Source: a virus
Taxonomy: Duplodnaviria > Caudoviricetes
Virus record (IMG/VR): IMGVR_UViG_3300022933_000012
Coordinates: 1 to 37,909 of that record
Length of the DNA stretch: 37,909 nt
Direction: 5' to 3' (one strand)
Positions 190 through 16,904 of the stretch are shown here, in pieces (positions within the stretch are counted from its first letter, which is position 1; every line of letters begins with the position of its first letter). A program made the translations under genes and the position numbers. The notes beneath the pieces were generated by a model, which was not told where the DNA came from, made no database searches, and saw only the letters and a program-made list of their open reading frames with translations.

Positions 190-222
190 CGATGACTCTC
201 CCCTATGCAACATCCAGGGTGC

Positions 223-910: not shown

Positions 911-933
911 AATCCGAAATTTAATAATAGCGA

Positions 934-949
934 GGGGCCCGAAGGCCCC
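934..949 (+). terminator. GC hairpin (weak terminator or RNA processing/stability element)
   Basis: GGGGCC-CGAA-GGCCCC, intergenic, with no U-tract. Confidence 0.4.
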
Positions 950-961
950 GGGGAAATTATC

Positions 962-1159
962 ATGAGTATGAAAAAGCGTTGGGCAGCTGATGACACGCCA
1001 GACCTATTGAAGCGAGTCAAAAATGTTGATGATCCTTTAATACATGTGGCATCACAAAACGTCACTACCCGGTCTAGATTGTTAAATCTAGGTCATAGTG
1101 AGGAGACCATTGATAAGTTTATTGGGCAAGGCATATATGTGGGGGTGGACCATGAGTAA
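962..1159 (+). CDS. Small hypothetical protein
   Basis: 65 aa ORF filling the gap in a tightly packed + strand operon. Confidence 0.6.
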   Translation: MSMKKRWAADDTPDLLKRVKNVDDPLIHVASQNVTTRSRLLNLGHSEETIDKFIGQGIYVGVDHE

Positions 1160-1355
1160 CTGGATTGCTTGGACAAGCCAAAAACCCGCTGCCATGCAGG
1201 TTGTGTTAACCCACCATGACGGCCACGTTGGGGCCGACTGGGTAGATAATGAAATGTTGCGGGATGCCGAAAGTGGCGTGAAGCCCGTCACTGATTGGAT
1301 GGCAGTGCCGCCCCCACCTACCATGGTGCAACTTGAATTGGACTTTGGAGAATGA
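1152..1355 (+). CDS. DUF551-like small phage protein
   Basis: Start re-called at ATG 1152: MSNWI..QKP...VTDWMAVPPPP matches the WI..P/VTHWMPLP pattern. Confidence 0.6.
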   Translation: MSNWIAWTSQKPAAMQVVLTHHDGHVGADWVDNEMLRDAESGVKPVTDWMAVPPPPTMVQLELDFGE

Positions 1356-1358
1356 GCT

Positions 1359-1568
1359 ATGGACGTTCCACCTCTATTCTGGGTTACGTGCGGCCAAGCC
1401 ACCCGAATCCGAAGGACTCACACAAAGAAGCAAATCGAAGCCACCAAAAGGCGTCGTGCCCTTGAAAGCATGATTGAAGACCATAGGCTGGCCAAAGAAT
1501 TGGACATGCCCTTTGAGGAATTTCAGGAAAAAATTGGGGTTTGCTCCACGATAAAGAGGAAATTATGA
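1359..1568 (+). CDS. Small hypothetical protein (RRR..ED..LAKEL motif)
   Basis: 69 aa; GGAG RBS upstream; motif shared with 12793-12990. Confidence 0.6.
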   Translation: MDVPPLFWVTCGQATRIRRTHTKKQIEATKRRRALESMIEDHRLAKELDMPFEEFQEKIGVCSTIKRKL

Positions 1569-1945
1569 TGGACGCGACAGACAAACAATTAAGAAGTAGT
1601 CATCTATACCTAGCTGGTCTCCACCATATAGAAAAGGAAATAAACATGGAGGGCCTCATAACCGTTGATGGCATGTTAATCACCACTGCAGACATGGTAG
1701 ATATCATGGGCAGGGATGAACTGAATAATATTGCCTTGATGCTTTTGGCAGACCCGGACGAGGCCCTCGAAGAGGCCCGATGCTTAGTGGCCATTGCGGT
1801 ATTAGCGTTCTGTGAGGCCACCCCAATAACCGCCGTCAAATGTGCGCTGGAAAATGGGTACGTTTTGGAAGAACCCTTATTCAAGGACCGGGTGAAGCTT
1901 GGGTTATCGCCCAGCACCTTGGTCGAAAATATTGACTGCAGATAG
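1565..1945 (+). CDS. Hypothetical protein
   Basis: Start re-called at ATG 1565, after GATAAAGAGGAA and overlapping the previous stop (ATGA). Confidence 0.65.
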   Translation: MMDATDKQLRSSHLYLAGLHHIEKEINMEGLITVDGMLITTADMVDIMGRDELNNIALMLLADPDEALEEARCLVAIAVLAFCEATPITAVKCALENGYVLEEPLFKDRVKLGLSPSTLVENIDCR

Positions 1946-1950
1946 GGTCT

Positions 1951-1989
1951 CCAGTCACGGCGTGACCAAGAGGCATATTTTTGGTCACG
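1951..1989. promoter_or_regulatory. Operator-like element, copy 2
   Basis: CCAGTCACGGCGTGACC...ATATTTTTGGTCACG; contains the 9-bp inverted repeat CGTGACCAA/TTGGTCACG; intergenic. Confidence 0.55.
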
Positions 1990-2014
1990 TCCAATCTAAG
2001 ATAAAGAGAACATT

Positions 2015-2182
2015 ATGAATAAATCGCCGTATGTGGTCGAGGGCCAACCTTTTATTGAGGTGGATGTTAAATATTTTGATATTATCCAAAGGGATAGTGA
2101 ATTACTTGAACAGTTGCACTATGTCGGAGTAGAAGAATGGGACGGCTATAAAACTGCCGTTGAGCTGTATGAAAATAACTAA
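2015..2182 (+). CDS. Small phage protein not in the ORF track (55 aa)
   Basis: MNKSPYVVEGQPFIEVDVKYFDIIQRDSELLEQLHYVGVEEWDGYKTAVELYENN; preceded by GATAAAGAG; GVEEWDGY resembles the common phage GVDNWEGY motif. Confidence 0.65.
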   Translation: MNKSPYVVEGQPFIEVDVKYFDIIQRDSELLEQLHYVGVEEWDGYKTAVELYENN

Positions 2183-2192
2183 GGAGAAGGCA

Positions 2193-2507
2193 ATGAGCCT
2201 CATATTCAAACCCCGCATTCCCGAGTCATTCAGCTTTGGGGGCGGAAGAATGCAAGAATCAAAACCCAAGGTAGTTCCACCTGAAGCTAAACCCAAAGTA
2301 GTTCCGCCTAAAGCTAAAGTGTGGACCAATAAGGAAATACAGAAACTCGTGGATTTGAGAGCTATGGGTTGCTCATATAAAGATTGCGGACCACTCATGG
2401 GCAGAAGTGCAACAGGGGTGGCCACTTTTGTAGTCCATCGCGATTTATATGGCGTTATTGCCAAAAAACGTAAAGAACTTATAGCAAATATCACGGGCAG
2501 GTGTTAA
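2193..2507 (+). CDS. Putative HTH DNA-binding protein (GcrA/Myb-like N-terminal pattern)
   Basis: RBS AAGGAG before ATG 2193; WTNKEIQKLVDLRAMGCSYKDCGPLMGRS fits WT.EE..L..L...G.S...IA..LGRS; a 27-bp tandem duplication at 2262-2315 encodes KPKVVPP(E/K)A twice. Confidence 0.65.
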   Translation: MSLIFKPRIPESFSFGGGRMQESKPKVVPPEAKPKVVPPKAKVWTNKEIQKLVDLRAMGCSYKDCGPLMGRSATGVATFVVHRDLYGVIAKKRKELIANITGRC

Positions 2508-2508
2508 A

Positions 2509-2856
2509 ATGGACTACACAATGAAAGAAATACAGGAAGTATTCATCCGGGCAGAGCGACTGCGAATGTCGGCTTTATGTTTAGACATGGAAATCAACCA
2601 TATAAAGGATATGTCTACTATGTACCGCAAAACTATGTTAATGGACACGGCCAAAAGTTGGGGCAATGGGTTCTGGCCCTTCGTTGAGTTGTTAAAAATT
2701 AAGGGCTGCACCAGTGAGGAAGATTTTTATGCTGAGGCTCATTGCCTTCTCCAACAGTGTGTAGATATGTGTAAGACCAAAAATGAGAAACTAGATAAAC
2801 TTTTGAAGGAGATGGATGATGCAAACCCAAGTCAAGCTGACCCAACTGAACATTGA
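2509..2856 (+). CDS. Hypothetical protein
   Basis: 115 aa ORF abutting its neighbours. Confidence 0.6.
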   Translation: MDYTMKEIQEVFIRAERLRMSALCLDMEINHIKDMSTMYRKTMLMDTAKSWGNGFWPFVELLKIKGCTSEEDFYAEAHCLLQQCVDMCKTKNEKLDKLLKEMDDANPSQADPTEH

Positions 2857-4492
2857 GGTCCAGTGTGAGCAATTCGACCACCGGGCGAAAGAAGCCCCTG
2901 TCCGAAAGTGGGAACCTCAAGCCAGAGTTTGGCAGCTTCCCCTCACCGGGGCCACGGCCAAGTATGTATTAAAGAGTTATGCCACTAGGGAAATCTGCCC
3001 AGACGCGGCAGATAGGCTAAGAGAACTCATAGCTCAAACCAAAGTGACTGCGCCTTTTCCCGTCTGGTATAAGTTTAAGAATAAGCCCATGGACCATCAG
3101 AACGTAGCCCTTGAGAAGATGTGGGGCGAAAAGACATTTGCTCTCTTCATGGAAATGGGCACCGGGAAAACTTTTACCATCGTGAATTGGAGTGCGGCCA
3201 TGTTCATGAATAGGGATATTGAGGCCATGTTGGTAGTTTGCCCCACCTCGGTCAAGCCCGTGTGGATAGGTGAAATGGACGCCCATTGCCCAATCGAACA
3301 TTCAGTCTATGTGTTAGAGTCTGGCGGGTCAAGCAAATGTGAAAAATGGATGCAAAGCGCCCCCGGCTTGAAAGTTATGGTGGTGGGGGTGGAAGCCCTA
3401 TCTGCTGGCAGAGCCTATAGTAGTGCTATTGATTTTGTTTTAGGCCACAAAACCTTAATGGTGATAGATGAATCAAGCCGCATCAAAACTCACTCGGCCA
3501 CCCGGACTAAAAGATGTATTAAACTTGGGGAAGCTTGCCAAGCCAGAGCGATTCTCACGGGAACACCAATTACCCAAGGTATGCAAGACTTATATGCCCA
3601 ATTTGCTTTCCTAGATAAGGATATAATAGGTCAAAAGTCCTATTATGGGTTCCAAAACAGATACTGCACTATGGGCGGGTTTGAGGGCCGCAAGATCACC
3701 GGGTATAAGAACATAAACGAAGTTATGGACCTAGTGGCCCCTCACACTTACATTGTGAAAAAAGATGATGTGCTGGACCTGCCGCCCAAGGTATACGAGT
3801 CTATTGTGGTAAAACCAAGCAAAGAACAGGCCAGAATACTGAAAGACGTTGGCGATAAATTCGTCATGGGTTCCAGCTTGAATGGTCTGGACCTAGAGGT
3901 TGAAACCATATTGGAACGGATGATCAGATACCAACAAATTGTGGGGGGCATGTTCCCATACGACGAGGACGGTGGAACCCACGGCATTACACCCATTCCA
4001 GGACCTAACCCCAAACTGGATGCCATGTGCGACATGATCAAAGACCTTGATGTCAACGCCAAAGTGATAATTTGGGCCCGTTTTGTGCCCGAACAAAAAA
4101 TGATAGCTGAATATTTAGATTCAATCTTTGGGACGTGCGTGGCTTGGTATTCTGCGGGCTCCAGCACCAACGAAAGAAAGCAAATGATTGAGGATTTTCA
4201 GGACCCGTATTCTGGTTGCAGGTTTTTTCTGTCTAATCCCACTATGGGCGGCATAGGGCTGACCCTGACAGCAGCGTCATATGTAATATACTACAGTAAC
4301 AGCTTCTCACTGGAGGACCGCCTGCAGTCTGAGGACCGGGCCCACCGCAAAGGCCAAACCAAGTCTGTAACTTATATAGATATTATGATGGACCACCAGA
4401 TAGACCGGGACATCATAACAGCCATCAAAAATAAAAAGTCTGTGGCTGATTACGTGGAAAGTTCTATCATTGAAGCCCAGAACGGGAATTGA
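2816..4492 (+). CDS. SNF2-family (SF2) DNA helicase
   Basis: Motif I MEMGTGKT, motif II IDESS, motif III LTGTP, GGIGLTL, motif VI QSEDRAHRKGQ. Confidence 0.92.
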   Translation: MMQTQVKLTQLNIEVQCEQFDHRAKEAPVRKWEPQARVWQLPLTGATAKYVLKSYATREICPDAADRLRELIAQTKVTAPFPVWYKFKNKPMDHQNVALEKMWGEKTFALFMEMGTGKTFTIVNWSAAMFMNRDIEAMLVVCPTSVKPVWIGEMDAHCPIEHSVYVLESGGSSKCEKWMQSAPGLKVMVVGVEALSAGRAYSSAIDFVLGHKTLMVIDESSRIKTHSATRTKRCIKLGEACQARAILTGTPITQGMQDLYAQFAFLDKDIIGQKSYYGFQNRYCTMGGFEGRKITGYKNINEVMDLVAPHTYIVKKDDVLDLPPKVYESIVVKPSKEQARILKDVGDKFVMGSSLNGLDLEVETILERMIRYQQIVGGMFPYDEDGGTHGITPIPGPNPKLDAMCDMIKDLDVNAKVIIWARFVPEQKMIAEYLDSIFGTCVAWYSAGSSTNERKQMIEDFQDPYSGCRFFLSNPTMGGIGLTLTAASYVIYYSNSFSLEDRLQSEDRAHRKGQTKSVTYIDIMMDHQIDRDIITAIKNKKSVADYVESSIIEAQNGN

Positions 4493-4517
4493 CATATGCC
4501 CCCATATATGGTATAAT
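4489..4517 (+). promoter_or_regulatory. Perfect-consensus sigma70 promoter for the replication module
   Basis: TTGACA(4489-4494)-17 bp-TATAAT(4512-4517) with extended -10 TG, followed by GATAAAGAGGAATTA. Confidence 0.85.
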
Positions 4518-4545
4518 AGTGCACTAGAGATAAAGAGGAATTAAA

Positions 4546-4896
4546 ATGAGCGATATTGAAAATCAAAACGGCCCCCAAGTCTTCGTGACTCAGTTTGACC
4601 CAAAGTGGGATTTTTCATCCTTGGTAAAGCATGGCGAGGTCATCTTCCTTACCCAGACCGAATATCGGCCCGAACCTTCGATGCCGGGATATAATCAGGC
4701 TATTATGGCCGAAATCCTGCGCAACATGAAAGATTACCGCCCCGGCATCGACTATATTGCCCTCACTGGGTCTGCCCTGCCAAACGTAATTTCAGGGATG
4801 GCTCTTGGCAGTATTCTGCGCTATAACAGCAACGTGTCCAACAACATTTTAAAATGGAGTCGCAGAAATAACGACTACGAATTATTTGCATTGTAA
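4546..4896 (+). CDS. Conserved phage protein, possible small Rossmann/CARF-like fold
   Basis: 116 aa; strong RBS; VFVTQ...GEVIFL...DYIALTGS...LKW pattern. Confidence 0.7.
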   Translation: MSDIENQNGPQVFVTQFDPKWDFSSLVKHGEVIFLTQTEYRPEPSMPGYNQAIMAEILRNMKDYRPGIDYIALTGSALPNVISGMALGSILRYNSNVSNNILKWSRRNNDYELFAL

Positions 4897-4908
4897 GAGG
4901 AAGAGAAA

Positions 4909-5307
4909 ATGAGTATTAAATCACTAGCAGAAAAGATGGTCATTGTCAGGACCAAGCTAGAGGCGTCTAAGTCGGCAACGGCTGAGCTGCAAAAAGAATT
5001 CGATGACATCCGGAAGATACAACTGCCCGAAGCTATGGAAGCTGCAGGTATGGAGTCTACCCGGTTGCCGAATATTGGTACAATTTCAATGCGCACTGAT
5101 GCATACGCAAGTATCAGAGGTGGTCAGCAGGACGAGGCGTACGAATGGATGAAGAACAACGGATTTGGTGATCTTATCAAAGATTTTGTTCACTCATCAA
5201 CGTTGAAAGCGTTTTTAAAGGAGCAATTTCGCGAAGGCGAGCAACTCCCGGAAGACATTTTCACCTTTTCACCCTATAGCTATGCAGCTATTACTAAATC
5301 AAAATAG
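4909..5307 (+). CDS. Conserved replication-module protein with N-terminal coiled coil
   Basis: 132 aa; LPEAM...G, WMKNNGFGDLIK and VHSSTLKAF motifs typical of the gene found before phage SSB-like genes. Confidence 0.75.
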   Translation: MSIKSLAEKMVIVRTKLEASKSATAELQKEFDDIRKIQLPEAMEAAGMESTRLPNIGTISMRTDAYASIRGGQQDEAYEWMKNNGFGDLIKDFVHSSTLKAFLKEQFREGEQLPEDIFTFSPYSYAAITKSK

Positions 5308-5323
5308 AACTGAGGATTAAGAA

Positions 5324-6031
5324 ATGAACAAACAACTAAAGACCAACAGTGGTGAAGTAGCACGTCCAGCATTCATGGACCCCAGCAGCGCACGAGGCTC
5401 CGAAGGAGTAGGTATCGATGATATCACGATTCCACGCGTGGACGTACTCCAAGCACTGAGTCCCCAGCGCAAAAAGACTAATTCAGAGTACATTGAAGGA
5501 GCCGAAGAGGGTATGCTTTTCAATACCGTCACCAAGCAGTTGTACGGCTCTAACTTCACGTTTGTCCCAGTGTACTTCCGCAAAGAGTATGTCATCTGGA
5601 AGGATCGCAAAGAGGGCGGTGGTTTTGCTGGTGCATTTGCATCAGAGCAAGACGCCCAGAACGCAATCTCGGACCAAGACCTGAACCCAGAGATCCATCA
5701 AATCTCTGACACCGGGCAACATTTTGGTCTATTGGTGGATGATTATGAATCTGAGACTCCTAAAATTGAGGAAGCAGTGATTTCCATGTCCCGCTCCAAG
5801 ATGAAAGTGAGTCGCCAGCTCAACACAATGATCCGCATGGCGGGCGGCGACCGATTTGAACGAGCCTACACTGTAGCCGCAGTGGAAGCCCAGAATAACA
5901 ACGGAGAGGAATTCTTCAATATCTCAGTTAAGCAGCTGGGCTATGTTTCTGAGGCAGTGTTCAAAGCAGCTGAGGTCGTGTATACTGCGATCACGGCAGG
6001 AACCGCAGACGTTAGCCGCAAAGCTGACTAA
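5324..6031 (+). CDS. Putative single-stranded DNA-binding protein
   Basis: 235 aa; GSEGV..DDITIPRV.VLQALSPQ, GAEEGM.FNTVT and EYVIW motifs; located upstream of the polymerase. Confidence 0.6.
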   Translation: MNKQLKTNSGEVARPAFMDPSSARGSEGVGIDDITIPRVDVLQALSPQRKKTNSEYIEGAEEGMLFNTVTKQLYGSNFTFVPVYFRKEYVIWKDRKEGGGFAGAFASEQDAQNAISDQDLNPEIHQISDTGQHFGLLVDDYESETPKIEEAVISMSRSKMKVSRQLNTMIRMAGGDRFERAYTVAAVEAQNNNGEEFFNISVKQLGYVSEAVFKAAEVVYTAITAGTADVSRKAD

Positions 6032-6038
6032 ATCGAAC

Positions 6039-6054
6039 GGCCCCTCCGGGGGCC
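6039..6054 (+). terminator. GC hairpin
   Basis: GGCCCC-TCCG-GGGGCC between a stop (6031) and an RBS (6059); no U-tract; similar to 934-949. Confidence 0.4.
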
Positions 6055-6068
6055 CATTGGAGAATACC

Positions 6069-6380
6069 ATGGCGTTTGAACAAAGAGAATTGAGTGGCTC
6101 ACTGTTTCGCAACGATTATAAAAAATCGGCCAACCAGCCTGATTATCGCGGGTCGTGTAAAATGGGGGGCATTGAGTATGAAATGTCAGCTTGGATAAAG
6201 CAAACTGGCAAAGGTGACGATTTCTTCAGCATCGCGTACCAAGTGAAGGAAGAGCGGCCAACAACCAACGCTGCGCCCGCCAAAATTAAGGCACCCACCA
6301 TGGCCACGGGAAGGCCCAGCCCTCCAGAAAGGGGTAATTATCCAGAACCGTCAGACTTGGGTGATGATATACCATTTTAA
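6069..6380 (+). CDS. Small SSB-like protein (DUF736-like) with acidic DDIPF tail
   Basis: Start re-called at ATG 6069 after GGAG; GSLFRN..K....PDYRG and SAW motifs; C-terminus DLGDDIPF. Confidence 0.75.
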   Translation: MAFEQRELSGSLFRNDYKKSANQPDYRGSCKMGGIEYEMSAWIKQTGKGDDFFSIAYQVKEERPTTNAAPAKIKAPTMATGRPSPPERGNYPEPSDLGDDIPF

Positions 6381-6423
6381 CCACCCACAACAAAGAACTC
6401 CACTTTAATAAAGAGTATTTACC

Positions 6424-8274
6424 ATGTTTGATTTACCAGACCTCAGCCAGTACCCGGTCATCGCCCTAGATACCGAGACTACTGGACTTTTACAGGGGGT
6501 GGACAAGGCCTTTGGCGTTTCCATCACCCTTCCCAACTTGCAGGATTTCTACTGGGACCTGCGAGTCCACCCTCAAATCATAGACTATTTAAATGACAAA
6601 CTCGGCAATTATCGTGGCATTATTGTGGGCCACAACATCGGCTTCGATTACAGGATGTCACATGCTGCCGGACTTATGCTACCAATCTCCAACCTCGATG
6701 ACACTGTTATTCGGGCTGCTCTCATTGACGAGCATTTACTATCTTATAGTTTGGATGATCTCGCGATAAGATACCTGAACGAACGAAAAGAAACTGAGAT
6801 ATATGAAGAGTTGGCTTCCCTATTCGGAGGCCGGGCGACCCGCAAAGTTCAAATGCCCAATATCAGTCGGGCCCCAGTGAATGTCGTGTCCCCCTACGCA
6901 AAGAAAGACACGAACCTCACTATGCGTTTATGGCAGTGGCAAGAGAAAGAAATCAAAGCCCAAAATCTGGAAGAAATCCATAAATTTGAGCGGTCCTTGA
7001 TACCAACATTCATCAAAACAATGGAACGAGGAATCCGCATTGACTCGGCATATGCCGAGGAAGCAGCCGACAAACTAACCCCTTTGATACTGGAAGACCA
7101 AAAGACTCTCAACGACATTGCAGGTCACGAGATAAACGCCAACTCGTCCGCCCAAATTCGTAAGCTGTTCGAACCTAAAATGGAGATAATTCGTGGCACG
7201 AAACAATGGGTAGCCAATGACGGCACTTTTTTGCTGGAGACCAATAGTGGCAATCCGTCCATCGGGTCAGACGCCCTGCGCCAAATGAAACACCCGGCCG
7301 CCGCCAGAATTCTTTCAATCCGTTCTTTGATCAAGACGAGGGACACTTTCATTAGGGGCCATGTGTTGGGGCACAGTGTGGGCGATAGGGTATATCCCAC
7401 CATAAACCAGAGCAAAGGCGAAACAGGAGGCACTGGCACTGGGCGACTGTCCATCCAAAACCCGGCCATGCAACAGATACCATCCAGAAATAAGACAGTG
7501 GCGGCCATTGTGAAGCCCTGCTTCCTGCCAGACGAGGGAATGGTATGGGTCGATGGTGATATGAGTTCATTTGAGGTTCGGGTGTTTGCCCACCTTATCA
7601 ACAACCCAGTCATCAACAATGAATACATGAGGGAACCGGAAACAGACCTACACCAGTTTGTGGGCGACCTGACCAACCTCCCCCGAAATGCCACATATAA
7701 TGGCCAAGCCAACGCCAAGCAATTAAACCTATCCATGATCTTCAACTCCGGAAACGGGGCAATAGCAGACGAAATGGGAATGCCTTGGGAATGGCAGACG
7801 TTCACTTCCACCGGGGGAAAGGCCATCACTTATAAGAAAGCCGGGCCAGAAGCATTGGAAGTTATCCAACGATACCATAGCCGGGTTCCCGGTGTGAAAG
7901 AGTTAGCGCAAAAGATGCAAAGGCGAGCCGAGAATTGGGGCTATGTTATGAATTATAAAGGGCGTAAACTTAGATTCCCACGCGGTTGGAAGTCCTACAA
8001 AGCATCCGGTCTCTTGATACAATCAACAGCAGCCGACTTGAACAAAGAGAACTGGAAACTGGCCGAGGAAGCTATGGGTGACGACGGCCATCTCATTTTA
8101 AACACTCACGATTCTTACTCAATGTGTATGCCGGAGAATTGGCAGCCAGTCTGGGCGCGAGTCAAAGAAGCAATCGAACAGCCACGCCTAAGAGTTCCTT
8201 TAGTATTAGATTTGAACGGGGCGGGCGAAAATTGGTGGAAAGCGCTACAGGGGGCCAATAGTGGAAGCAAGTGA
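6424..8274 (+). CDS. dpoZ: Family A DNA polymerase with 3'-5' exonuclease, DpoZ type
   Basis: Exo motifs DTETTG, HNIGFD, YAKKD; TGRLS; motif A DMSSFEVR; atypical motif B KQLNLSMIFNSG; motif C HDS instead of HDE; linked to purZ. Confidence 0.88.
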   Translation: MFDLPDLSQYPVIALDTETTGLLQGVDKAFGVSITLPNLQDFYWDLRVHPQIIDYLNDKLGNYRGIIVGHNIGFDYRMSHAAGLMLPISNLDDTVIRAALIDEHLLSYSLDDLAIRYLNERKETEIYEELASLFGGRATRKVQMPNISRAPVNVVSPYAKKDTNLTMRLWQWQEKEIKAQNLEEIHKFERSLIPTFIKTMERGIRIDSAYAEEAADKLTPLILEDQKTLNDIAGHEINANSSAQIRKLFEPKMEIIRGTKQWVANDGTFLLETNSGNPSIGSDALRQMKHPAAARILSIRSLIKTRDTFIRGHVLGHSVGDRVYPTINQSKGETGGTGTGRLSIQNPAMQQIPSRNKTVAAIVKPCFLPDEGMVWVDGDMSSFEVRVFAHLINNPVINNEYMREPETDLHQFVGDLTNLPRNATYNGQANAKQLNLSMIFNSGNGAIADEMGMPWEWQTFTSTGGKAITYKKAGPEALEVIQRYHSRVPGVKELAQKMQRRAENWGYVMNYKGRKLRFPRGWKSYKASGLLIQSTAADLNKENWKLAEEAMGDDGHLILNTHDSYSMCMPENWQPVWARVKEAIEQPRLRVPLVLDLNGAGENWWKALQGANSGSK

Positions 8275-10552
8275 ACAAACAGTCCTAGACCTACGGAGTC
8301 TGGAAGATATATCTAAGTTGGAATCCTACGAACAAAGACTCTACATGGCAGCATTAGAGTATATCAAAGCAGGATTCTATGTGGTTCCTTTGACTAAGAA
8401 TGAAAAGAAGCTGCCTGAGGCCAATAAGGGCGTAAATTACTCCAACGCGTCCAAAAACCACCGGGTCATTGAGAAGTGGTTCCACCCCACAAAGGGCAAG
8501 TTTGCTGGATATAACATCGGCATAGCCACCGGACGCGAGAATGGGGTGTTTGTAATAGATGTGGACCGCCATGGTGAAGATGACGGAATCCAAACTCTCA
8601 AAGCTCTTGAGGCCAAGCATAGCGAACTGCCGATAGGACCCTGCCAAGCCACACCCAACGGAGGGTTTCATTATTTATTTAGGTGGCAAGAAAACGCCAC
8701 CAACAGTACCAATAAAATTGGTTCCGCCATCGACACTAGAGGCGGAAGCGCTGCGGCCTGCAAAGGTCACATAGTGGTTTGGCCCTCTATGATCAACGGA
8801 GTGGGTTATAAATGGACCACGTCCGGTCCACTGCCAAGCATCCCACATTGGGTGGTTGAGAAGATGGGAATTTCTTGGTCCAAGCCTAGGGGCCACATCA
8901 CCGGAGAAGGCCGGGGCAATGAGAACGTCAATGTTGATGATTTCGAAAAGAAAGTCCCCCTAGACCAGATAACCCGAATGATGGAAGCAATATCAATAGA
9001 CGATGCCACATATGACGAGTGGATTCGGGTTGGTATGGCGATCAAGTCACAATACCCGGACGAGGATGGGTTTGAATTGTGGGACGACTGGTCATCGCAA
9101 GGGCATCGATACGAAAAGAATGAATGCCGCATACGATGGGAAGGGTTTAGCGATTTCGGGGCCGTCAGAATGGGCTCCCTATTCTACATGTCAAATGAAA
9201 GTGGCTGGAAGCCTGAGCCAGATGATATCCACATGGGCAGGATACACGGGGAAATCGAAAGAATAAACTCCGAGTATGGGTTCACTGTGGTGGGAGGCAA
9301 AGCCAAGATCATCAGGGAAAGGAAGAAAACACACGCAGCCGAGATGCATATGGCCCGCTATGACCTCATGGACAAAACTTCATTTGAAGCCTACCTTGAA
9401 AATGACAGGGTGGTAATAGACGAGGAAACCGGGAAGAAGATTTCTGTGGCCAAGATATGGCTGGCAAGCGAGGCCAGACGGACATACCCAAATGGCATAG
9501 GTCTTTTTCCAGAAGGGGCCCCTGCCGGGTACTACAACACTTGGGAAGGTTTCGCGGTCAAGTCAGAACCGGGTGAATGTGATATCTTCATTGACCACAT
9601 AAAAAACGTCATATGTAATGGGAATGAAGATGAAAGCAAATGGGTCCTAGACTGGATTGCTGACATGTTCCAAAATCCTCAGGACCCGAAAGGCACTGCC
9701 ATTGTTATGAGGGGTGGTGAGGGCACTGGCAAAGGAACGCTGGCCAACACAATAGGGGAGTTGTTTGGTAGCCACTACATCCACCTCATAGATGACGCTC
9801 ACCTGACCAGCAATTTCAACGCATTTATGATGGACGCTGTCTTAGTGTTTGCAGACGAGATTACATGGGGCGGCAACAAAAAGACTTCCGGCAAATTAAA
9901 GGGCCTAGTGACTGAGAGATTTCTTGTGTGCGAGCGCAAAGGCATAGACGCCCAAAGCTTCCGAAACATGATACACATGATCATAGCATCCAACTCAAAA
10001 TGGGTAATACCCGCCGGCACAGACTCCAGGCGATGGTATGTAACCGATGTCAGCCCCAATAAGAAGGGCAACATACCATATTTCAAGAAAATCAATAAAT
10101 TTATGAAAGAAGGGGGCCACGCCAAAATTCTGAATTTCTTCCTTAATAGAAAGATTACCAGCGATCTGAGGGTGGCCCCGCACACCGAAGCCCTGCAGGA
10201 CCAGCGCGATATGTCAATGTCATCTGAGACCACGGCAAATTGGATATCAATGCTATGCATAAACGAGTCTATGAAAGCTGTTTGTCTTGATGATACCGAG
10301 GGCTGGCCGTTAAGGGTCCAAAAGAAAGATCTATATGAAGACTATACCGAGTGGTGTTCGAAACGTCACAGGCACTCCGACCATATGATGATCTTCTTCA
10401 AAGAACTAAAAAAGTTGGGATTTAGGCCCACAAAGAAAAGACTGCCGGGGGGAGGAAGAGTCCCCGCAGTAGAAGTACCTCTGTTAGATAACCTGATAGA
10501 GTCGATGAAGCAAATGCATAACATGAACCTAAGAGAAGAAGACGATGAATAA
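8261..10552 (+). CDS. Primase-helicase (PrimPol N-terminus, PriCT-2 domain, SF3-like NTPase)
   Basis: NIGIATG, VIDVD, TPNGGFHYLF; YDEWIRVGMAI..WDDWS; Walker A GGEGTGKGT; FADE; RRW. Confidence 0.9.
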   Translation: MEASEQTVLDLRSLEDISKLESYEQRLYMAALEYIKAGFYVVPLTKNEKKLPEANKGVNYSNASKNHRVIEKWFHPTKGKFAGYNIGIATGRENGVFVIDVDRHGEDDGIQTLKALEAKHSELPIGPCQATPNGGFHYLFRWQENATNSTNKIGSAIDTRGGSAAACKGHIVVWPSMINGVGYKWTTSGPLPSIPHWVVEKMGISWSKPRGHITGEGRGNENVNVDDFEKKVPLDQITRMMEAISIDDATYDEWIRVGMAIKSQYPDEDGFELWDDWSSQGHRYEKNECRIRWEGFSDFGAVRMGSLFYMSNESGWKPEPDDIHMGRIHGEIERINSEYGFTVVGGKAKIIRERKKTHAAEMHMARYDLMDKTSFEAYLENDRVVIDEETGKKISVAKIWLASEARRTYPNGIGLFPEGAPAGYYNTWEGFAVKSEPGECDIFIDHIKNVICNGNEDESKWVLDWIADMFQNPQDPKGTAIVMRGGEGTGKGTLANTIGELFGSHYIHLIDDAHLTSNFNAFMMDAVLVFADEITWGGNKKTSGKLKGLVTERFLVCERKGIDAQSFRNMIHMIIASNSKWVIPAGTDSRRWYVTDVSPNKKGNIPYFKKINKFMKEGGHAKILNFFLNRKITSDLRVAPHTEALQDQRDMSMSSETTANWISMLCINESMKAVCLDDTEGWPLRVQKKDLYEDYTEWCSKRHRHSDHMMIFFKELKKLGFRPTKKRLPGGGRVPAVEVPLLDNLIESMKQMHNMNLREEDDE

Positions 10553-11573
10553 AAAAGTAGATGTGATAGTGGACCTTCAATTTGGATCAACTGGCAAAGG
10601 CTTAATAGCTGGGTACATGGCCAAAAGAGGAGGGTACGATGTAGTCATAAACGCCAACATGCCCAATGCTGGCCACACATTCATAGACGACACCGGGAGA
10701 ACTTGGATTCACAAAGTGTTGCCTAACGGGTTCGTGGCTGATTCCGTTAAAACCGTGGGATTGGGCCCGGGATCAGTATTTAGTCTAGACCGCTTGGTCA
10801 AAGAACTATCCGATTCAGAGGACATTATGGGAGGCAAACGTCTAATAATACACGAGGCTGCCGTTGTGCTATCTAAAAAACACGCAGAGATAGAAAGGGC
10901 TACGCTTAGTGGGATTGCCTCTACAATGCAAGGAAGTGCTGCCGCGATGATTCAAAAGATAATGCGCCAAAAAGAGGATAGCCCCCTAGCAAAGGATGTT
11001 TTATGGGGAACTAAATATAGCAAGTATGTGGTAACTCACGCCGAGTGGGTCGATATTATGTACAAGGCCCACAGGATTTTACTGGAGGGAGCGCAGGGAT
11101 ATAGTCTGGGGGTCAATTCCGGGTTCTGGCCCTACTGTACCAGCCGTGATTGCACACCCACCCGGTTCCTGTCGGATTGCGCCATCCCCTTCAGCTGGGC
11201 AGATAAGGTGATTGGAACAGCCAGAGTCCACCCGATTCGGGTTGGTAACACGCCAGACGGTTTTAGTGGCGGCCATTACGATGACCAAGAGGAAACATCT
11301 TGGGCGGAGCTAGGTGAAGTGCCGGAGACCACCACTGTTACGGGGCGGGAGAGAAGAGTCTTTACATTCAGCCGGACCCAAATGAAAGAGGCTATCATGG
11401 CTTGCCAGCCCACAGACATCTTTCTTAATTTTTGTAATTATGACCCGCTCTTGGCGGAAGAAATCATAATCCAGACAAACAAAGACCTTGCCAAAATTGG
11501 GCCCGATGGGGCGCAAGTCACCTACACTGGCTGGGGCGCAAAAGAAGGGGATGTGTTCTATGAAAATCAATGA
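10545..11573 (+). CDS. purZ: N6-succino-2-amino-2'-deoxyadenylate synthase (PurA paralogue)
   Basis: DLQFGSTGKG (Ser replaces the catalytic Asp of PurA GDEGKG), NAGHT, LLEGAQG, YCTSR, PIRVG, TTVTGR, and NFCNY in place of TKLD; 342 aa. Confidence 0.95.
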   Translation: MNKKVDVIVDLQFGSTGKGLIAGYMAKRGGYDVVINANMPNAGHTFIDDTGRTWIHKVLPNGFVADSVKTVGLGPGSVFSLDRLVKELSDSEDIMGGKRLIIHEAAVVLSKKHAEIERATLSGIASTMQGSAAAMIQKIMRQKEDSPLAKDVLWGTKYSKYVVTHAEWVDIMYKAHRILLEGAQGYSLGVNSGFWPYCTSRDCTPTRFLSDCAIPFSWADKVIGTARVHPIRVGNTPDGFSGGHYDDQEETSWAELGEVPETTTVTGRERRVFTFSRTQMKEAIMACQPTDIFLNFCNYDPLLAEEIIIQTNKDLAKIGPDGAQVTYTGWGAKEGDVFYENQ

Positions 11574-12069
11574 TATGCTTAGGGCCCAATATGTCAAAAG
11601 GTTCCATATTGTCCACACCATTAAACACCAAAGCATAGCCGAACATTCATTTAATGTTGCTATGATTGCCCGGGAAATATCCATCCGGTTTGGTTATAGC
11701 GAGGCTGCCATAAACATGGCTGTGCTGGATGGTATATATCATGATCTAGATGAGGTTATAACTGGAGATATTCCAACCCCCACTAAAGAAAGAGCCAAAG
11801 CTCAGGGAGTGGACCTGAATGACAACGGCATTTCTACGCCGTATCGTTGGGATAGTATTAAGGCCATCAGAGAAGTGGTCAAGGCTGCAGATTATATAGA
11901 GGCTGCATGGTTCCTAGGGGAAAATGGAGTGGGCCGACACGCCGATAGTGTGAAGGAGGATATCTTGGATAAGATGGAGGAATACTTCCAAGTAACTTTC
12001 AATGTGACAGAACTTGCACACATAAATGATGTCTGTGCCACCATTTTTAGCGCCGATTTCACCATATGA
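11560..12069 (+). CDS. datZ: HD-domain dATP triphosphohydrolase (YfbR-like)
   Basis: Start re-called at ATG 11560; VKRFHIV, QSIAEHS, HDLDEVITGDIPTP and VKAADYIEA; directly after purZ. Confidence 0.88.
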   Translation: MKINDMLRAQYVKRFHIVHTIKHQSIAEHSFNVAMIAREISIRFGYSEAAINMAVLDGIYHDLDEVITGDIPTPTKERAKAQGVDLNDNGISTPYRWDSIKAIREVVKAADYIEAAWFLGENGVGRHADSVKEDILDKMEEYFQVTFNVTELAHINDVCATIFSADFTI

Positions 12070-12467
12070 ACGAAGCCCGATTCCGGAAATGGGTGGTGGC
12101 GGCCATCAAAGAGGTTGGCGGCCATGCCTCCTCTATTGAATCTCACGCCACAAGCCCGGGAGTGCCAGATGTTGACTTCTGTATAGATGGTATTTCAGGC
12201 CACATTGAGCTTAAGGTTTATGGCAGCAAAGGCTTAAGGCAATCGCAGATATTATGGTTTAAGCAGAGACTGAAAGCGGGAGGAAAGCCTTGGATTTTAA
12301 TATATAGTATTGAGGGAGTTTACCTCATAGCAGGCGAACATTACCGCCTTGTAATAAACATGAATCAAAAAGAGAGATTAAAATGGGAAATAATAGCAGC
12401 ACAAATTTGGCCGACATTACCAACACCACAAAACCTTGCCATTGGCTTAAAGATAAACCAGCCCTGA
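12066..12467 (+). CDS. VRR-NUC/Holliday junction resolvase-like PD-(D/E)xK nuclease
   Basis: MNE..F, GVPDV, IELKV, LRQSQ..W. Confidence 0.8.
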   Translation: MNEARFRKWVVAAIKEVGGHASSIESHATSPGVPDVDFCIDGISGHIELKVYGSKGLRQSQILWFKQRLKAGGKPWILIYSIEGVYLIAGEHYRLVINMNQKERLKWEIIAAQIWPTLPTPQNLAIGLKINQP

Positions 12468-12778
12468 ACTACATGTACGAATTCCCAAACGGGATAGAAG
12501 GAATCTGCCGCACTCTGATGATGGGGGAGGGCAAATATACTAGGGGCGAATGGAAAGGCGATAGTAACACCCGGTACACTCAGTTTTCTATTATAGATTC
12601 AATGAATCGCCACCTCATGGCTAGCATAAATGGGGAAAAAACAGACCCGGAATCGGGCCTAGATCATTTATATCATGTGGCAGTGAATGCCTTGATGCTG
12701 GCCGAAAAATACGGAGTCCAGCCCCAGACCCTCAGGCAGGCATATCCATGGCCTATAGACGGTGACGAGTCAGATTAG
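12383..12778 (+). CDS. mazZ: dATP/dGTP diphosphohydrolase (DUF5664-like; MazZ role)
   Basis: G..KY....WK, RHL and GE..DPESGL.HL.H...NALML motifs; lies in the Z cluster. The start codon and gene symbol are tentative. Confidence 0.75.
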   Translation: MGNNSSTNLADITNTTKPCHWLKDKPALNYMYEFPNGIEGICRTLMMGEGKYTRGEWKGDSNTRYTQFSIIDSMNRHLMASINGEKTDPESGLDHLYHVAVNALMLAEKYGVQPQTLRQAYPWPIDGDESD

Positions 12779-12792
12779 GCTAGCAGCTACTA

Positions 12793-12990
12793 ATGAGCTA
12801 CCAAGATAGCATCACCGTCAGCATTAACAATGCCCTGCGCACAAAGCTGCGTAGGGAGGCAAAGGGCTTAACCAAGGCTGAAACAAAACTACAACATCGC
12901 AATGCAACCCATGTTGCGAGAAGGCGTCACGCAGAGGATGTGGCCCTTGCTAAGGAACTTGGCGTTGAATTAGAGGAGTTATTAGAATGA
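12793..12990 (+). CDS. Small hypothetical protein (RRR..ED..LAKEL motif)
   Basis: 65 aa; C-terminus resembles 1359-1568. Confidence 0.6.
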   Translation: MSYQDSITVSINNALRTKLRREAKGLTKAETKLQHRNATHVARRRHAEDVALAKELGVELEELLE

Positions 12991-13358
12991 CAACTGCCAA
13001 TGCAACAACAAACGAAGGTGGTTACAAATTAGTTGGGGCGGCGGCAGTTGGTAAACCACTGACACCAAACCAGATGTATTCTGAAAGAACACCAGCAAAT
13101 ACGATTTGGAATTACCGATATTCTGATCTATTAACAACACTGAGATATAGTAAAAACTCACCAGTTTCAATTGGCGCAAGCCACCTTCTTGATAAATTAA
13201 ATTATTCAATTGTTAATAATTGCCATGTTTATACTTCAAATACACCACGGCATTGGGCTATACATTGCCCCGACATTGGAAAAGTTATAATTCTAATGCA
13301 ACAAAATGAATTTGTCGTTGATGACGATTCATCTTTTACAGGGAGGATACCAAGATGA
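12987..13358 (+). CDS. Hypothetical protein (AT-rich)
   Basis: 123 aa; GAGGAG RBS; ATGA overlaps at both ends. Confidence 0.55.
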   Translation: MTTANATTNEGGYKLVGAAAVGKPLTPNQMYSERTPANTIWNYRYSDLLTTLRYSKNSPVSIGASHLLDKLNYSIVNNCHVYTSNTPRHWAIHCPDIGKVIILMQQNEFVVDDDSSFTGRIPR

Positions 13359-13483
13359 GTGCAAAAGCCAAACCAGTAAGCAAGCCGATGAGCCAACAAT
13401 TCGCTGATAACTATGACAGTGAAAAGATGTTTGACCGTTTCAGGGTTAGCCATTGGATGCCGTTTGCAGAAGCGCCCAAGTGA
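13355..13483 (+). CDS. Small ORF not in the track (42 aa) with DUF551-like C-terminus
   Basis: RBS GGGAGG and ATGA overlap; MSAKAKPVSKPMSQQFADNYDSEKMFDRFRVSHWMPFAEAPK. Confidence 0.5.
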   Translation: MSAKAKPVSKPMSQQFADNYDSEKMFDRFRVSHWMPFAEAPK

Positions 13484-13491
13484 GAGGAAAG

Positions 13492-13935
13492 CTATTTGGC
13501 CTTTAGGAATCCGAGCTTTCCTGACACTAGTTTGGTGAGTAGCCCCCTCAGCCCGAACTTGACTACATAAATCCCTATGACAAGGTACTGGTACCAGTCT
13601 GGCATGGCAGCGAATGACTCAAATGCTGCTGTAACCTCATCTTGGTATCCTATGAATGAGGCAGCAATAGGCAGCAATAGCAGGGCAATCATCATATCAT
13701 CCACAGAGGACTTGTCCATCTGCTGCATGGCAATGTAGTCTAGATTGTAATCTTGTGTTTGTCCATTGTCAGCTAACTTGTGGGCAGCTTTGGCATTGGC
13801 AACCTTGACATCAGCTTCTGCTTCAAAACCTATAATAGCTGCGGCCTGTTTAGCCTTGGCAATATCATTCTTTCCGCTCAAATAGGTCTTGCCTAAATCA
13901 GCTATCGGGCCAACTATTGATGAAAAGATACCCAT
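13492..13935 (-). CDS. Putative holin (3TM/GTA-holin-like)
   Basis: Start re-called at 13935 (MGIFSSIVGPI); hydrophobic segments MIALLLLPIAASFI and PDWYQYLVIGIYVVKFGLR; adjacent to the endolysin. Confidence 0.7.
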   Translation of the reverse strand: MGIFSSIVGPIADLGKTYLSGKNDIAKAKQAAAIIGFEAEADVKVANAKAAHKLADNGQTQDYNLDYIAMQQMDKSSVDDMMIALLLLPIAASFIGYQDEVTAAFESFAAMPDWYQYLVIGIYVVKFGLRGLLTKLVSGKLGFLKAK

Positions 13936-13936
13936 A

Positions 13937-14323
13937 TTAATCCTCCAACTCAAAGTGCGGCATGTCCTGAAAACTTTTCCATAGGCCACCCCATTGAAGT
14001 TTGTGACCCAGTTCTGCTGAAGCTTGCATCATAGCAACTGCAATTATAGCCAGATGCTCTTTCTCCCAACTGGCTTTACCGTCAACGTAAGCGTACACGT
14101 CCAGTGCCCTTCCTGTTTGGTGGTAGCTCTTGTTGTTGACTCCATCAGCCTTAGATTTTCCGTCATCGAACAGCTTGGCTTGATCTTCAGTGGAGCGCAA
14201 GCCACCAGTGCTAGGGATACCAAAATCAATGATACTAACTTGAATTGCACGGTCACTGATCTCTATAAGACGGGGATCTACACCAGCCCTATTGTTAAGT
14301 GAATTATTACCTAATTTAAACAT
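13937..14323 (-). CDS. Endolysin, M15 family L-Ala-D-Glu peptidase (T5-like)
   Basis: GLRS.EDQ, SYH.TGRALD, WGG.W, DMPHFEL zinc-binding motifs. Confidence 0.92.
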   Translation of the reverse strand: MFKLGNNSLNNRAGVDPRLIEISDRAIQVSIIDFGIPSTGGLRSTEDQAKLFDDGKSKADGVNNKSYHQTGRALDVYAYVDGKASWEKEHLAIIAVAMMQASAELGHKLQWGGLWKSFQDMPHFELED

Positions 14324-14327
14324 ATTA

Positions 14328-14609
14328 CTACCTCAGCATAAACGCTGCACCAGTAACTAGAGCAGCAATTAACAATCTTACAAACCACTCATTAGCGCCG
14401 CTTGATTTGCTGACTGTTGCCAGCTTGACCGCGTGGTTATCAATTGCTTCCGAGTGTTTATTGAGCCTATTATCCTGCGTATTATTGTGGGCCACTAGCC
14501 CATCAATCTTGGTGTCTATAGCCACTAATTTAATCATGGCGTCCGATAGTTTGTCTATCTTAGCTTCCAGCCTATCGAATCGTCGGTTCGCATCATCCAT
14601 CATAATCAT
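14328..14609 (-). CDS. Coiled-coil protein with C-terminal TM helix (lysis-associated, XhlA-like)
   Basis: RFDRLEAKIDKL heptads; C-terminal WFVRLLIAALVTGAAFML. Confidence 0.65.
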   Translation of the reverse strand: MIMMDDANRRFDRLEAKIDKLSDAMIKLVAIDTKIDGLVAHNNTQDNRLNKHSEAIDNHAVKLATVSKSSGANEWFVRLLIAALVTGAAFMLR

Positions 14610-16298: not shown

Positions 16299-16904
16299 TC
16301 ATGCCGTATATGACCAACCGAGATTCCTAGACGAATTTGAGCTGCTAGCAGAATCAGTTCCAATATGTCTTTTATGGCTGCTTGATCCTGACCCCAAATG
16401 GGTAGGCATCCAGTAATAGGCGCAATCCCCAACATTTGATCCGTATGACGCAACTCTCGCTGTAAAAGTATTTAGGGCTACAGACAATGTTATTTGTGGT
16501 GATCTAGCCATGAAAACAGCCCTTGAGCCGTTGGAAGTCTCAGCATAAATTGTGTATTCTGAATAATTATACCCTGTTGAACTAGAAGGGGTGCCGCCAT
16601 AATCCCTGTTGAACCTAAATTGCGCAGTGCTTGTGCCAATAGTTGAGTAACTATCTGCCTCTGCATAATCAGCAACCTCCGAGGATATTGTGCCAGAGGC
16701 AGCACTGGCCCAAGCCCAGCCATCGTTGCTTGACTCAAATCCATGGTCGAATTCCCCAGTTACTGCGATATTAGCTATTTGGTAATCCCCTTGCCAATAA
16801 CTGGTAGCTGGTGCGTAAAAAACGACAAGCCTCCCTATCAGGTTGTTCACTACTGGGACGTAGAAGTCAGAGAATGATATTGCACCACTGGTTGGTATTG
16901 TCAT
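16299..16904 (-). CDS. Putative fibre-tip adhesin, MAM-like, paralogue A
   Basis: 201 aa; N-terminal MTIPTSGAISFSDF typical of proteins encoded after S74-chaperone fibres; FNRDYGGTPSSSTG, IYAETS, YWMP. Confidence 0.65.
   Translation of the reverse strand: MTIPTSGAISFSDFYVPVVNNLIGRLVVFYAPATSYWQGDYQIANIAVTGEFDHGFESSNDGWAWASAASGTISSEVADYAEADSYSTIGTSTAQFRFNRDYGGTPSSSTGYNYSEYTIYAETSNGSRAVFMARSPQITLSVALNTFTARVASYGSNVGDCAYYWMPTHLGSGSSSHKRHIGTDSASSSNSSRNLGWSYTA

What the first reader, a model, noticed from the sequence alone, without database searches (positions are those of the whole stretch)
6424..12778. Complete 2-aminoadenine (Z-genome) pathway: dpoZ, primase-helicase, purZ, datZ, nuclease and dNTP diphosphohydrolase
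Seen: a PurA homologue with Ser15 in GSTGKG and NFCN in place of TKLD, followed by an HD hydrolase and a DPESGL-type diphosphohydrolase, downstream of a PolA with HDS. Established: in phages such as S-2L and phiVC8, PurZ makes the dZMP precursor from dGMP, DatZ removes dATP, MazZ supplies dGMP, and DpoZ prefers dZTP; host PurB and kinases complete the path. Inference: this virion DNA has Z instead of A and resists restriction enzymes whose sites contain A. The pathway is known, but this phage may be a new carrier.
Basis: partly seen in the sequence, partly recalled or inferred. Interest (0 to 1): 0.9.

Follow-up and report, generated by a model that had tools for sequence, protein, structure and literature searches.

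The report
Z-DNA phage cluster lacking MazZ
This uncultured marine phage carries intact genes of the known pathway that swaps adenine for 2-aminoadenine (Z) in DNA, so its genome is likely Z-DNA; it has no mazZ gene, and a stand-alone DUF5664 hydrolase likely supplies the pathway's starting nucleotide instead.

Summary
Confirmed, with one correction. 6424-12778 encodes a phiVC8-type DpoZ and an ATP-type PurZ, both above NCBIfam cut-offs (864/500 and 345/300 bits). It also encodes DatZ, an Hjc-like nuclease and a stand-alone DUF5664 (PF18909). Published PurZ specificity residues match phiVC8, and trees reject PurA and PurZ0. Z-DNA is likely (~0.9) but inferred, not measured.

Correction: no mazZ was found in this closed 38-kb genome, although mazZ was published as always lying between purZ and datZ. 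Among 80 related purZ+datZ clusters, 13 of 13 without a MazG-type gene carry DUF5664, against 15 of 67 with one. The tree-corrected test is not significant (4 pairs, p 0.25). A stand-alone DUF5664 from phage Wayne is published to turn dGTP into dGMP, so DUF5664 likely replaces MazZ (~0.6). DUF5664 and DUF6378 share one slot and never co-occur.

The scan noted the same DUF5664-for-MazZ swap before on another genome (e1-3415090). New variant of a known system; interest modest.

The parts
2816..4492 (+). SNF2-type helicase, conserved upstream of the module in phiVC8-like phages
   Evidence: Pfam SNF2-rel_dom and Helicase_C; 49% to phiVC8 p34
4489..4517 (+). Perfect sigma-70 consensus promoter with extended -10; likely start of the replication and Z operon
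   Evidence: The only 12/12 match among 25 sites in 1-14400; function not shown
4546..6031 (+). Three conserved replication-module genes (Pam3 gp32-, gp33- and gp34-like; 4546-4896, 4909-5307, 5324-6031)
   Evidence: Pfam PF23992, PF23984, PF23977; gp33 and gp34 homologues in phiVC8, ZP6, SH-Ab 15497, Bm1
6072..6380 (+). Single-strand DNA-binding protein (open frame from 5943; start inferred)
   Evidence: PHROG 18154 and 7364
6424..8274 (+). DpoZ, phiVC8 type (family A polymerase with 3'-5' exonuclease)
   Evidence: NF038380 863.8 bits against cut-off 500; PDB 7pbk E 5.7e-217; residues and insertions 1-3 present, exonuclease insertion 117-127 absent
8261..10552 (+). Primase-polymerase / PriCT-2 / DUF5906 primase-helicase
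   Evidence: Pfam; 40% to phiVC8 p28
10545..11573 (+). PurZ, ATP-using type
   Evidence: NF038379 344.5 bits against cut-off 300, all PurA models below cut-off; F13, S15, T263, N295, F296, N298, Y299 match phiVC8; tree
11560..12069 (+). DatZ (HD-domain dATP triphosphohydrolase), overlapping the end of purZ so that no gene lies between
   Evidence: Best PDB hit S-2L DatZ 6zpa E 6.5e-14; PHROG 7076; H29, H61, D62, D111, I17, P74 kept, F15 in place of W20
12066..12467 (+). Small nuclease-like protein, likely Hjc/VRR-Nuc type; conserved after datZ; no known part in Z synthesis
   Evidence: PHROG 2165 and 93; no Pfam hit; one Atlas cluster with Hjc in 11% of members at rank 18
12383..12778 (+). Stand-alone DUF5664 (PF18909, dGTP_diPhyd_N); likely dATP/dGTP diphosphohydrolase standing in for MazZ
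   Evidence: Pfam 65.6 bits against cut-off 27; alignment with the Wayne and SH-Ab domains; co-occurrence counts

Best explanation
The window holds an intact phiVC8-type dpoZ-primase-purZ-datZ-nuclease cluster with no mazZ and a stand-alone DUF5664 gene at its end, so the phage likely replicates a genome in which 2-aminoadenine (Z) replaces adenine, with DUF5664 likely doing MazZ's job. Steps: (1) DUF5664 would cut dGTP to dGMP + PPi, and dATP to dAMP [inferred from the Wayne enzyme and from co-occurrence]. (2) PurZ would join dGMP and aspartate to dSMP using ATP or dATP [family membership shown; activity inferred from phiVC8 and S-2L]. (3) Host PurB and kinases would make dZTP [published for phiVC8; no such gene was identified in the window]. 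(4) DatZ would drain dATP to dA [inferred]. (5) DpoZ would favour dZTP opposite T [membership shown; selectivity inferred]. (6) Z would block about half of the restriction enzymes with A in their site [published in vitro]. Odds: Z in virion DNA about 0.9; this full version with DUF5664 as dGMP supplier about 0.6.
For: Curated cut-offs are passed by PurZ and DpoZ, and by no PurA or Pol I model. PurZ groups with phiVC8, ZP6, 69E27.1, Bm1 and BUCT555 (91/96); AU tests reject grouping with PurA (p 0.0011) or PurZ0 (p 0.0001). Polymerase identity falls in two bands: 45-56% to listed phages of the PurZ groups and 26-28% to the others, in 60 listed of 88 records. MazZ-1 and MazZ-2 profiles find nothing in six frames of the window (best E 1.8 and 0.22), and nothing in 12 of 12 whole records that lack it locally, while 3 of 3 and 2 of 2 controls ring. 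The genome closes: one 17,380-nt contig covers 21029-37872 and runs on into 17-556. Of 80 purZ+datZ clusters (95% identity), 13 of 13 without a MazG-type gene carry DUF5664, against 15 of 67 with one; Fisher p 1.2e-7, uncorrected for kinship. MazZ absence changes 7 times on the tree, and no independent pair goes the opposite way. Stand-alone Wayne DUF5664 hydrolyses dATP, dUTP and dGTP to dNMP (PMC12884076). The DUF5664 model (pLDDT 87) has 2p06 AF_0060 as top fold hit (Z 6.8, rmsd 5.5, 85 aligned), with S-2L MazZ at Z 3.9; this is weak, and that AF_0060 is MazG-like is recalled.
Against: No base analysis or assay exists for this phage. The tree-corrected test has only 4 supported pairs (on average 2.9 the same way, 0 opposite, 1.1 no difference; median p 0.25). 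Five of the 13 clusters are this phage and four close kin. If L088 and L090, recoded by eye as holding a third MazG-like ORF, count as MazZ-less, the figure is 13 of 15. DUF5664 also sits beside MazZ in 15 clusters and matches 415 phage records, the 50 listed being groups not among the listed PurZ carriers, so it has uses outside Z synthesis. The Wayne enzyme is slow on dGTP (apparent kcat 0.053/s against 0.48/s on dATP) and only 24% identical to this one. DatZ has F in place of W20, and DpoZ lacks the 117-127 insertion. The genome still avoids A-containing sites (GATC 0.59 of expected, CCWGG 0.14), and GC-only palindromes are not specially avoided.
Confidence: 0.6

Rival explanations
1. The genome is Z-DNA, but DUF5664 mainly removes dATP and dUTP as a back-up to DatZ. 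PurZ draws dGMP from host pools or from degraded host DNA, so MazZ was simply lost.
For: Wayne DUF5664 has about tenfold higher kcat on dATP than on dGTP and also cuts dUTP. Incomplete clusters still give some Z in E. coli (PMC8342488). DUF5664 co-exists with MazZ in 15 of 67 clusters.
Against: It does not explain why 13 of 13 MazZ-less clusters keep DUF5664 and none has DUF6378 or nothing. In L092 DUF5664 sits in the mazZ position itself.
Confidence: 0.27
2. Substitution is only partial: without MazZ, and with a DpoZ lacking the exonuclease insertion 117-127, the virion DNA is a mix of A and Z.
For: Incomplete clusters give lower substitution in E. coli. A-containing restriction sites remain depleted.
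Against: SH-Ab 15497, a characterised Z phage, also lacks that insertion. All catalytic residues checked are kept. The module is conserved in relatives (DpoZ 93%, PurZ 88%). CCWGG is cut in Z-DNA by PspGI, so avoiding it fits full substitution too.
Confidence: 0.1
3. The PurA homologue is an ordinary auxiliary adenylosuccinate synthetase (IMP to AMP) and the DNA is canonical.
For: It matches Pfam Adenylsucc_synt, and some sources label close homologues 'adenylosuccinate synthase'. Two PurZ-like genes with the same residues occur without datZ or dpoZ nearby (L039, L121).
Against: Ser stands in place of PurA Asp13. All PurA models are below cut-off. The AU test rejects grouping with PurA. A dATP-destroying DatZ next door makes no sense for canonical DNA.
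Confidence: 0.03

Closest known systems
Vibrio phage phiVC8 (Enhodamvirus) and Alteromonas phage ZP6 (Mareflavirus) Z modules
   Same: Gene order helicase - gp33 - gp34 - ssb - dpoZ - primase - purZ ... datZ - nuclease. PurZ 52% and 56%, DpoZ 54% and 55%, DatZ 42% and 33% identical; same PurZ specificity residues.
   Different: They have mazZ-2 between purZ and datZ and DUF6378 after the nuclease; this phage has neither and has DUF5664 there. This phage has a long non-contractile tail module (tape measure, tail tube, Dit); phiVC8 is a podovirus (PMC8342488). Its DpoZ lacks their 117-127 insertion.
Acinetobacter phage SH-Ab 15497 group (also PMBT28, PSA28, Kokobel2, VLCpiS6a): DUF5664::DUF550 fusion
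   Same: ATP-type PurZ (41-45%), DpoZ of the same clade (45-47%), DatZ, and a DUF5664 domain in the cluster.
   Different: There DUF5664 is fused to MazZ-1/DUF550 and lies between purZ and datZ (5 of 5). Here it is alone, downstream, and no DUF550 is present.
Arthrobacter phage Wayne DUF5664-1 (PurZ0 system)
   Same: Stand-alone DUF5664 next to a PurZ-family gene; the only stand-alone DUF5664 with measured activity that I found (PMC12884076).
   Different: Wayne uses PurZ0, DutZ/DmtZ and the other DpoZ clade, with no DatZ. Its DUF5664 is 24% identical and not close on the tree.
Cyanophage S-2L triad purZ-mazZ-datZ
   Same: PurZ 38% and DatZ 31% identical; DatZ metal ligands and I22/P79 kept.
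   Different: S-2L has MazZ-1 and a non-selective PrimPol, not DpoZ.

Membership tests
PurZ (ATP-type) | Score above the curated cut-off of NF038379, below PurA models | tested here: met
   344.5 against 300; PurA models 43-144 bits, all under cut-off
PurZ (ATP-type) | Ser in place of PurA Asp13; dGMP pocket F12, S14, T262 | tested here: met
   F13, S15, T263; residue roles from bioRxiv 2025.10.22.683976
PurZ (ATP-type) | ATP pocket N294, F295, N297, Y298 (phiVC8 numbering) | tested here: met
   N295, F296, N298, Y299; roles from PMC8342488
PurZ (ATP-type) | Falls in the PurZ clade, apart from PurZ0 and PurA | tested here: met
   16-row tree; AU p 0.0011 and 0.0001 against the alternatives; only one PurA used and its branch is long
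PurZ (ATP-type) | dGMP + Asp + ATP to dSMP activity | not testable with these tools
   Needs an assay
PurZ0 (GTP-type) | Groups with Wayne and Archimedes; dutZ in the genome | tested here: not met
   AU test rejects; no dUTPase hit among 47 ORFs in PHROGs or the ORFs scanned in Pfam
DpoZ, phiVC8 clade | Score above the cut-off of NF038380 | tested here: met
   863.8 against 500
DpoZ, phiVC8 clade | Insertions 1-3 and L455, F459, G548; exonuclease D26, E28, D85; R161, M165 | tested here: met
   All present (definitions)
DpoZ, phiVC8 clade | Preference for dZTP over dATP | not testable with these tools
   No single residue predicts it (PMC8599892)
DatZ | HD metal ligands H34, H66, D67, D119 and I22 (S-2L numbering); position after purZ | tested here: met
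   H29, H61, D62, D111, I17; I22 role, the metal-ligand roles recalled
DatZ | W20 sugar-selecting residue | tested here: inconclusive
   F15 here and in L003; the other 6 of 8 aligned rows have W. Y20 variants are reported in dZ-enriched contigs
Z-cluster triad (purZ-mazZ-datZ, Czernecki 2021) | mazZ (variant 1 or 2) between purZ and datZ | tested here: not met
   purZ and datZ overlap by 14 nt; MazZ-1 and MazZ-2 profiles negative on the whole record with controls ringing
DUF5664 / PF18909 | Pfam score above gathering cut-off; conserved G, W, RH, GE..D | tested here: met
   65.6 against 27
All-alpha NTP pyrophosphohydrolase (MazG-like) fold for DUF5664 | Structural match to MazG-type folds | tested here: inconclusive
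   Top hit 2p06 Z 6.8, rmsd 5.5; 4qgp Z 4.0; 7ody Z 3.9; Foldseek no match at E<=0.001; no profile match to MazZ
Z-genome phage | Z in virion DNA | not testable with these tools
   Short-read assemblies do not record it

The most novel reading that the evidence does not exclude
The Z pathway has a fourth, swappable slot after the nuclease. DUF5664 in that slot is a full substitute for MazZ and let mazZ be lost about seven times independently. DUF6378, which fills the same slot in 32 clusters including phiVC8 itself, never occurs with DUF5664 and always occurs with MazZ; it is an unrecognised nucleotide-pool enzyme of the textbook system.
Probability: 0.25. Interest if true: 0.55.

Novelty: new variant of a known kind. 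Interest (0 to 1): 0.33.

Why it matters
The pathway itself is well described. What this genome adds is an exception to the published rule that mazZ always lies between purZ and datZ, and a testable candidate for what replaces it. If DUF5664 alone feeds PurZ, it is one more convergent way to supply dGMP, it shows which half of the DUF5664::DUF550 fusion can suffice, and it offers a 131-aa part for making Z-DNA in cells. The phage is also an uncultured marine long-tailed lineage (PurZ at most 56% identical to any isolate), whose sequence turns up in an RNA library of another study.

Tried and rejected
1) PF04447 search of 13 whole records found nothing but had no positive control. I replaced it with profile searches that had controls.
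2) Prediction that a Z genome avoids only GC-only palindromes: not seen. GGCC 0.84, CGCG 0.79, GCGC 0.87 and CCGG 1.03 of expected, against GATC 0.59 and CCWGG 0.14. No comparison genomes were run, and no formal test of Z-sensitive against Z-resistant sites was made, so this says little either way.
3) DUF5664-DUF6378 homology: no profile match (probability 0.2-0.6%). The DUF6378 model (pLDDT 96.5) gave only generic helical hits, Z<=6.3, and no MazG-type entry among the 50 listed. Neither shows that the folds differ.
4) DUF5664 against PDB by sequence: one chance hit. Foldseek: nothing significant.
5) The DUF5664 tree (36 rows) does not resolve whether this lineage is a separate acquisition.
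6) The careful 90-row PurZ tree did not finish; a quick tree and FastTree were used.
7) Host: the genome collection gave 4 loci in MAGs, 32-57% identical, so no host. The nearest endolysins are from Pseudoalteromonas phages (59-61%), a lead only.
9) PMC12697855 passages had nothing on these families.
Full report
Observation. The window is a whole phage record of 37,909 nt. Six ORFs lie head to tail on the + strand from 6424 to 12778. Pfam and PHROGs call them family A polymerase, Prim-Pol/PriCT-2/DUF5906 primase-helicase, adenylosuccinate synthetase homologue, YfbR-like HD hydrolase, nuclease-like protein and PF18909 dGTP_diPhyd_N. The operon likely begins further left, at a 12/12 sigma-70 consensus at 4489-4517, and includes three conserved genes and an SSB.

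PurZ. The best PDB hits are phiVC8 PurZ (E 2.5e-108) and S-2L PurZ (1e-62), then PurZ0 7vf6 (8e-24) and PurA (about 1e-16). It passes the PurZ cut-off (344.5/300) and no PurA cut-off. phiVC8 F12, S14, P233, I234, T262, N294, F295, N297 and Y298 are all matched; P144 is K and S273 is T. In a 16-row tree it groups with phiVC8, 69E27.1, ZP6, Bm1 and BUCT555 (91/96). AU tests reject grouping with Salmonella PurA (p 0.0011) or with the two PurZ0 (p 0.0001); the outgroup branch is long.

DpoZ and DatZ. The polymerase scores 863.8/500 on NF038380. It has the three clade insertions, L455, F459, G548, the exonuclease triad and R161/M165, but not the exonuclease insertion 117-127, which SH-Ab 15497 also lacks (definitions from PMC8599892). 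Among 60 listed of 88 phage records, identity is 45-56% for phages of the PurZ groups and 26-28% for the rest. DatZ keeps the HD ligands, I22 and P79, with F for W20; its best PDB hit is S-2L DatZ.

The missing gene. [quoted passage not shown] All 12 PurZ isolates I opened obey this; they are 12 of 63 near-full-length records, the rest unopened. Here purZ and datZ overlap by 14 nt. Profiles of MazZ-1, MazZ-2, a third MazG-like type and DUF6378 give best E 1.8, 0.22, 2.9 and 1.1 on six frames of the window. Whole-record searches are negative in 12 of 12 records (the window, plus four rated 99-100% complete among the others), while 2 of 2 and 3 of 3 controls ring. CheckV rates the window 88% and 'linear'. 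However, one 17,380-nt contig of run X2, which may be the source, covers 21029-37872 and continues into 17-556, and in relative G001 the two ends are adjacent. The genome is therefore closed and the absence is real at this sensitivity.

What stands in. I gathered 180 purZ loci plus the window (keep only the best 80 of 150 and 80 of 188). I dropped 34: the window's own record, and 33 with under 1,700 nt downstream or short PurZ coverage, SH-Ab among them. The 147 left form 87 clusters at 95% identity, 80 with datZ. Thirteen have no MazG-type gene and all 13 carry DUF5664 (12 after the nuclease; L092 in the mazZ position). Of 67 with such a gene, 15 carry DUF5664, 32 DUF6378 and 20 neither (Fisher p 1.2e-7, kinship ignored). 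L088 and L090 were moved to the second group by eye: their slot holds a 103-106 aa acidic ORF with no Pfam hit and one MazG-labelled Atlas cluster at rank 21 (29% of members). Without that move the count is 13 of 15. Two dropped loci, L080 and L127, also show DUF5664 without mazZ. On an 82-row FastTree, MazZ absence changes 7 times. Four supported independent pairs go on average 2.9 the same way and 0 the other; median p is 0.25, so the association is not established after correction.

Activity. In PMC12884076, stand-alone Wayne DUF5664 converts dATP, dUTP and dGTP to dNMP, tenfold faster on dATP than on dGTP. The paper says PurZ phages carry MazZ-2 or DUF550 'often fused with' DUF5664. I could not see its Fig. 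5, which maps presence and absence and may show unfused cases. [quoted passage not shown] The AlphaFold model is helical (pLDDT 87) with AF_0060 as top fold hit at Z 6.8; this is below the tool's trust level, and the MazG-like status of AF_0060 is recalled. DUF5664 also matches 415 phage records, and the listed ones are groups not among the listed PurZ carriers, so its presence alone proves nothing.

Mechanism. Most likely: DUF5664 makes dGMP; PurZ makes dSMP with ATP or dATP; host PurB and kinases make dZTP; DatZ drains dATP; DpoZ favours dZTP. Gene identity and the absence of mazZ are shown; every activity is inferred. Z in virion DNA about 0.9; DUF5664 as dGMP supplier about 0.6. Protection is partial at best: 47% of 147 enzymes cut 98.6% Z-DNA (PMC12944874). 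The genome avoids CCWGG (8 seen, 57 expected) but not GGWCC (56 and 57). In that paper's Table S1, PspGI cuts CCWGG in Z-DNA and AvaII is blocked at GGWCC, which fits. But GATC is avoided (0.59) although MboI and DpnII are blocked, and GCWGC and AGCT are not avoided although their enzymes cut. This is no evidence either way.

Context. The structural genes are those of a long non-contractile-tailed phage. The capsid is at most 48% and the terminase at most 52% identical to isolates. Close kin have PurZ 81-90% identical. Holding runs are labelled seawater or marine. RNA run X3, of another study, holds exact-match contigs over parts of dpoZ, datZ and the nuclease/DUF5664 overlap, and one of 5.8 kb over the capsid-tail block. 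DNA carry-over is not excluded, so transcription is not shown.

Novelty. The pathway is known. I found no paper describing a PurZ+DatZ cluster without mazZ in six searches. The 2021 Science papers and the PurZ0 paper were not seen and are known to me only through citing papers and recall. Papers seen: PMC12884076 parts 1-5 of 7 and a supplement search; PMC8599892 passages and section 12; PMC8342488 passages and section 11; bioRxiv 2025.10.22.683976 abstract, one third of the results and passages; PMC12944874 part 2 of 4 and Table S1; PMC13128860 abstract; PMC12697855 passages. Verdict: real, a new variant of a known system, interest 0.33.

Noticed in passing
window 32795-34474 (-): The minor head protein MuF has a C-terminal ADP-ribosyltransferase domain (PF03496, E 8.8e-14; R, STT, ExE motifs). 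In relative G001 the MuF part is 87% identical but the tip only 40%, as in the polymorphic MuF toxins of phages (family recalled).
   Followed up: partly
slot after the nuclease; e.g. L002:11464-11760, L001:11219-11491: DUF6378 (PF19905) fills the slot in 32 of 80 clusters, including phiVC8 and ZP6, always with MazZ and never with DUF5664. It has invariant K, R, D, D and Y. No homology to DUF5664 was detected.
   Followed up: partly
L088:5047-5367, L090:5008-5319: A third small acidic helical ORF type lies in the mazZ position, unrelated by profile to MazZ-1 or MazZ-2; weak MazG lead from the Atlas.
   Followed up: partly
L047, L058, L059, L130: purZ-mazZ1 clusters with no datZ nearby; a DUF7220 gene lies in its place in the two checked. 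Close kin at 80% identity keep datZ, so the loss looks recent. Whole records were not searched.
   Followed up: partly
L039 (119.9-kb contig), L121, L180: PurZ-like genes with no datZ, mazZ or dpoZ within 4 kb; L039 keeps Ser and NFCNY and is 60% identical to phiVC8 PurZ. Role unexplained.
   Followed up: no
window 37870-37909 and 1-55: A G-run followed by an A-run lies at the junction between terS and the early genes, and is conserved in G001. G001 has about 500 nt of imperfect short repeats next to it, where the window has about 130 nt. Possible origin or packaging region.
   Followed up: no
whole window: Strong avoidance of CCWGG (0.14 of expected), CGWCG (0.42), CCCGGG (0.43) and GATC (0.59); may reflect host restriction-modification systems.
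   Followed up: partly
window 13937-14323 (-): The M15 endolysin is nearest to Pseudoalteromonas phages H40/1 and H6/1 (59-61%); a weak hint at a marine gammaproteobacterial host.
   Followed up: partly
window 12793-13358 (+): Two ORFs after DUF5664 have no family hit and are absent from the close relatives G001 and G002.
   Followed up: no
window 16901-21337 (-): A 1,478-aa tail fibre has several imperfect repeats of about 30 aa near its N-terminus and a Peptidase_S74 chaperone at its end; it is not shared with the relatives tested.
   Followed up: no
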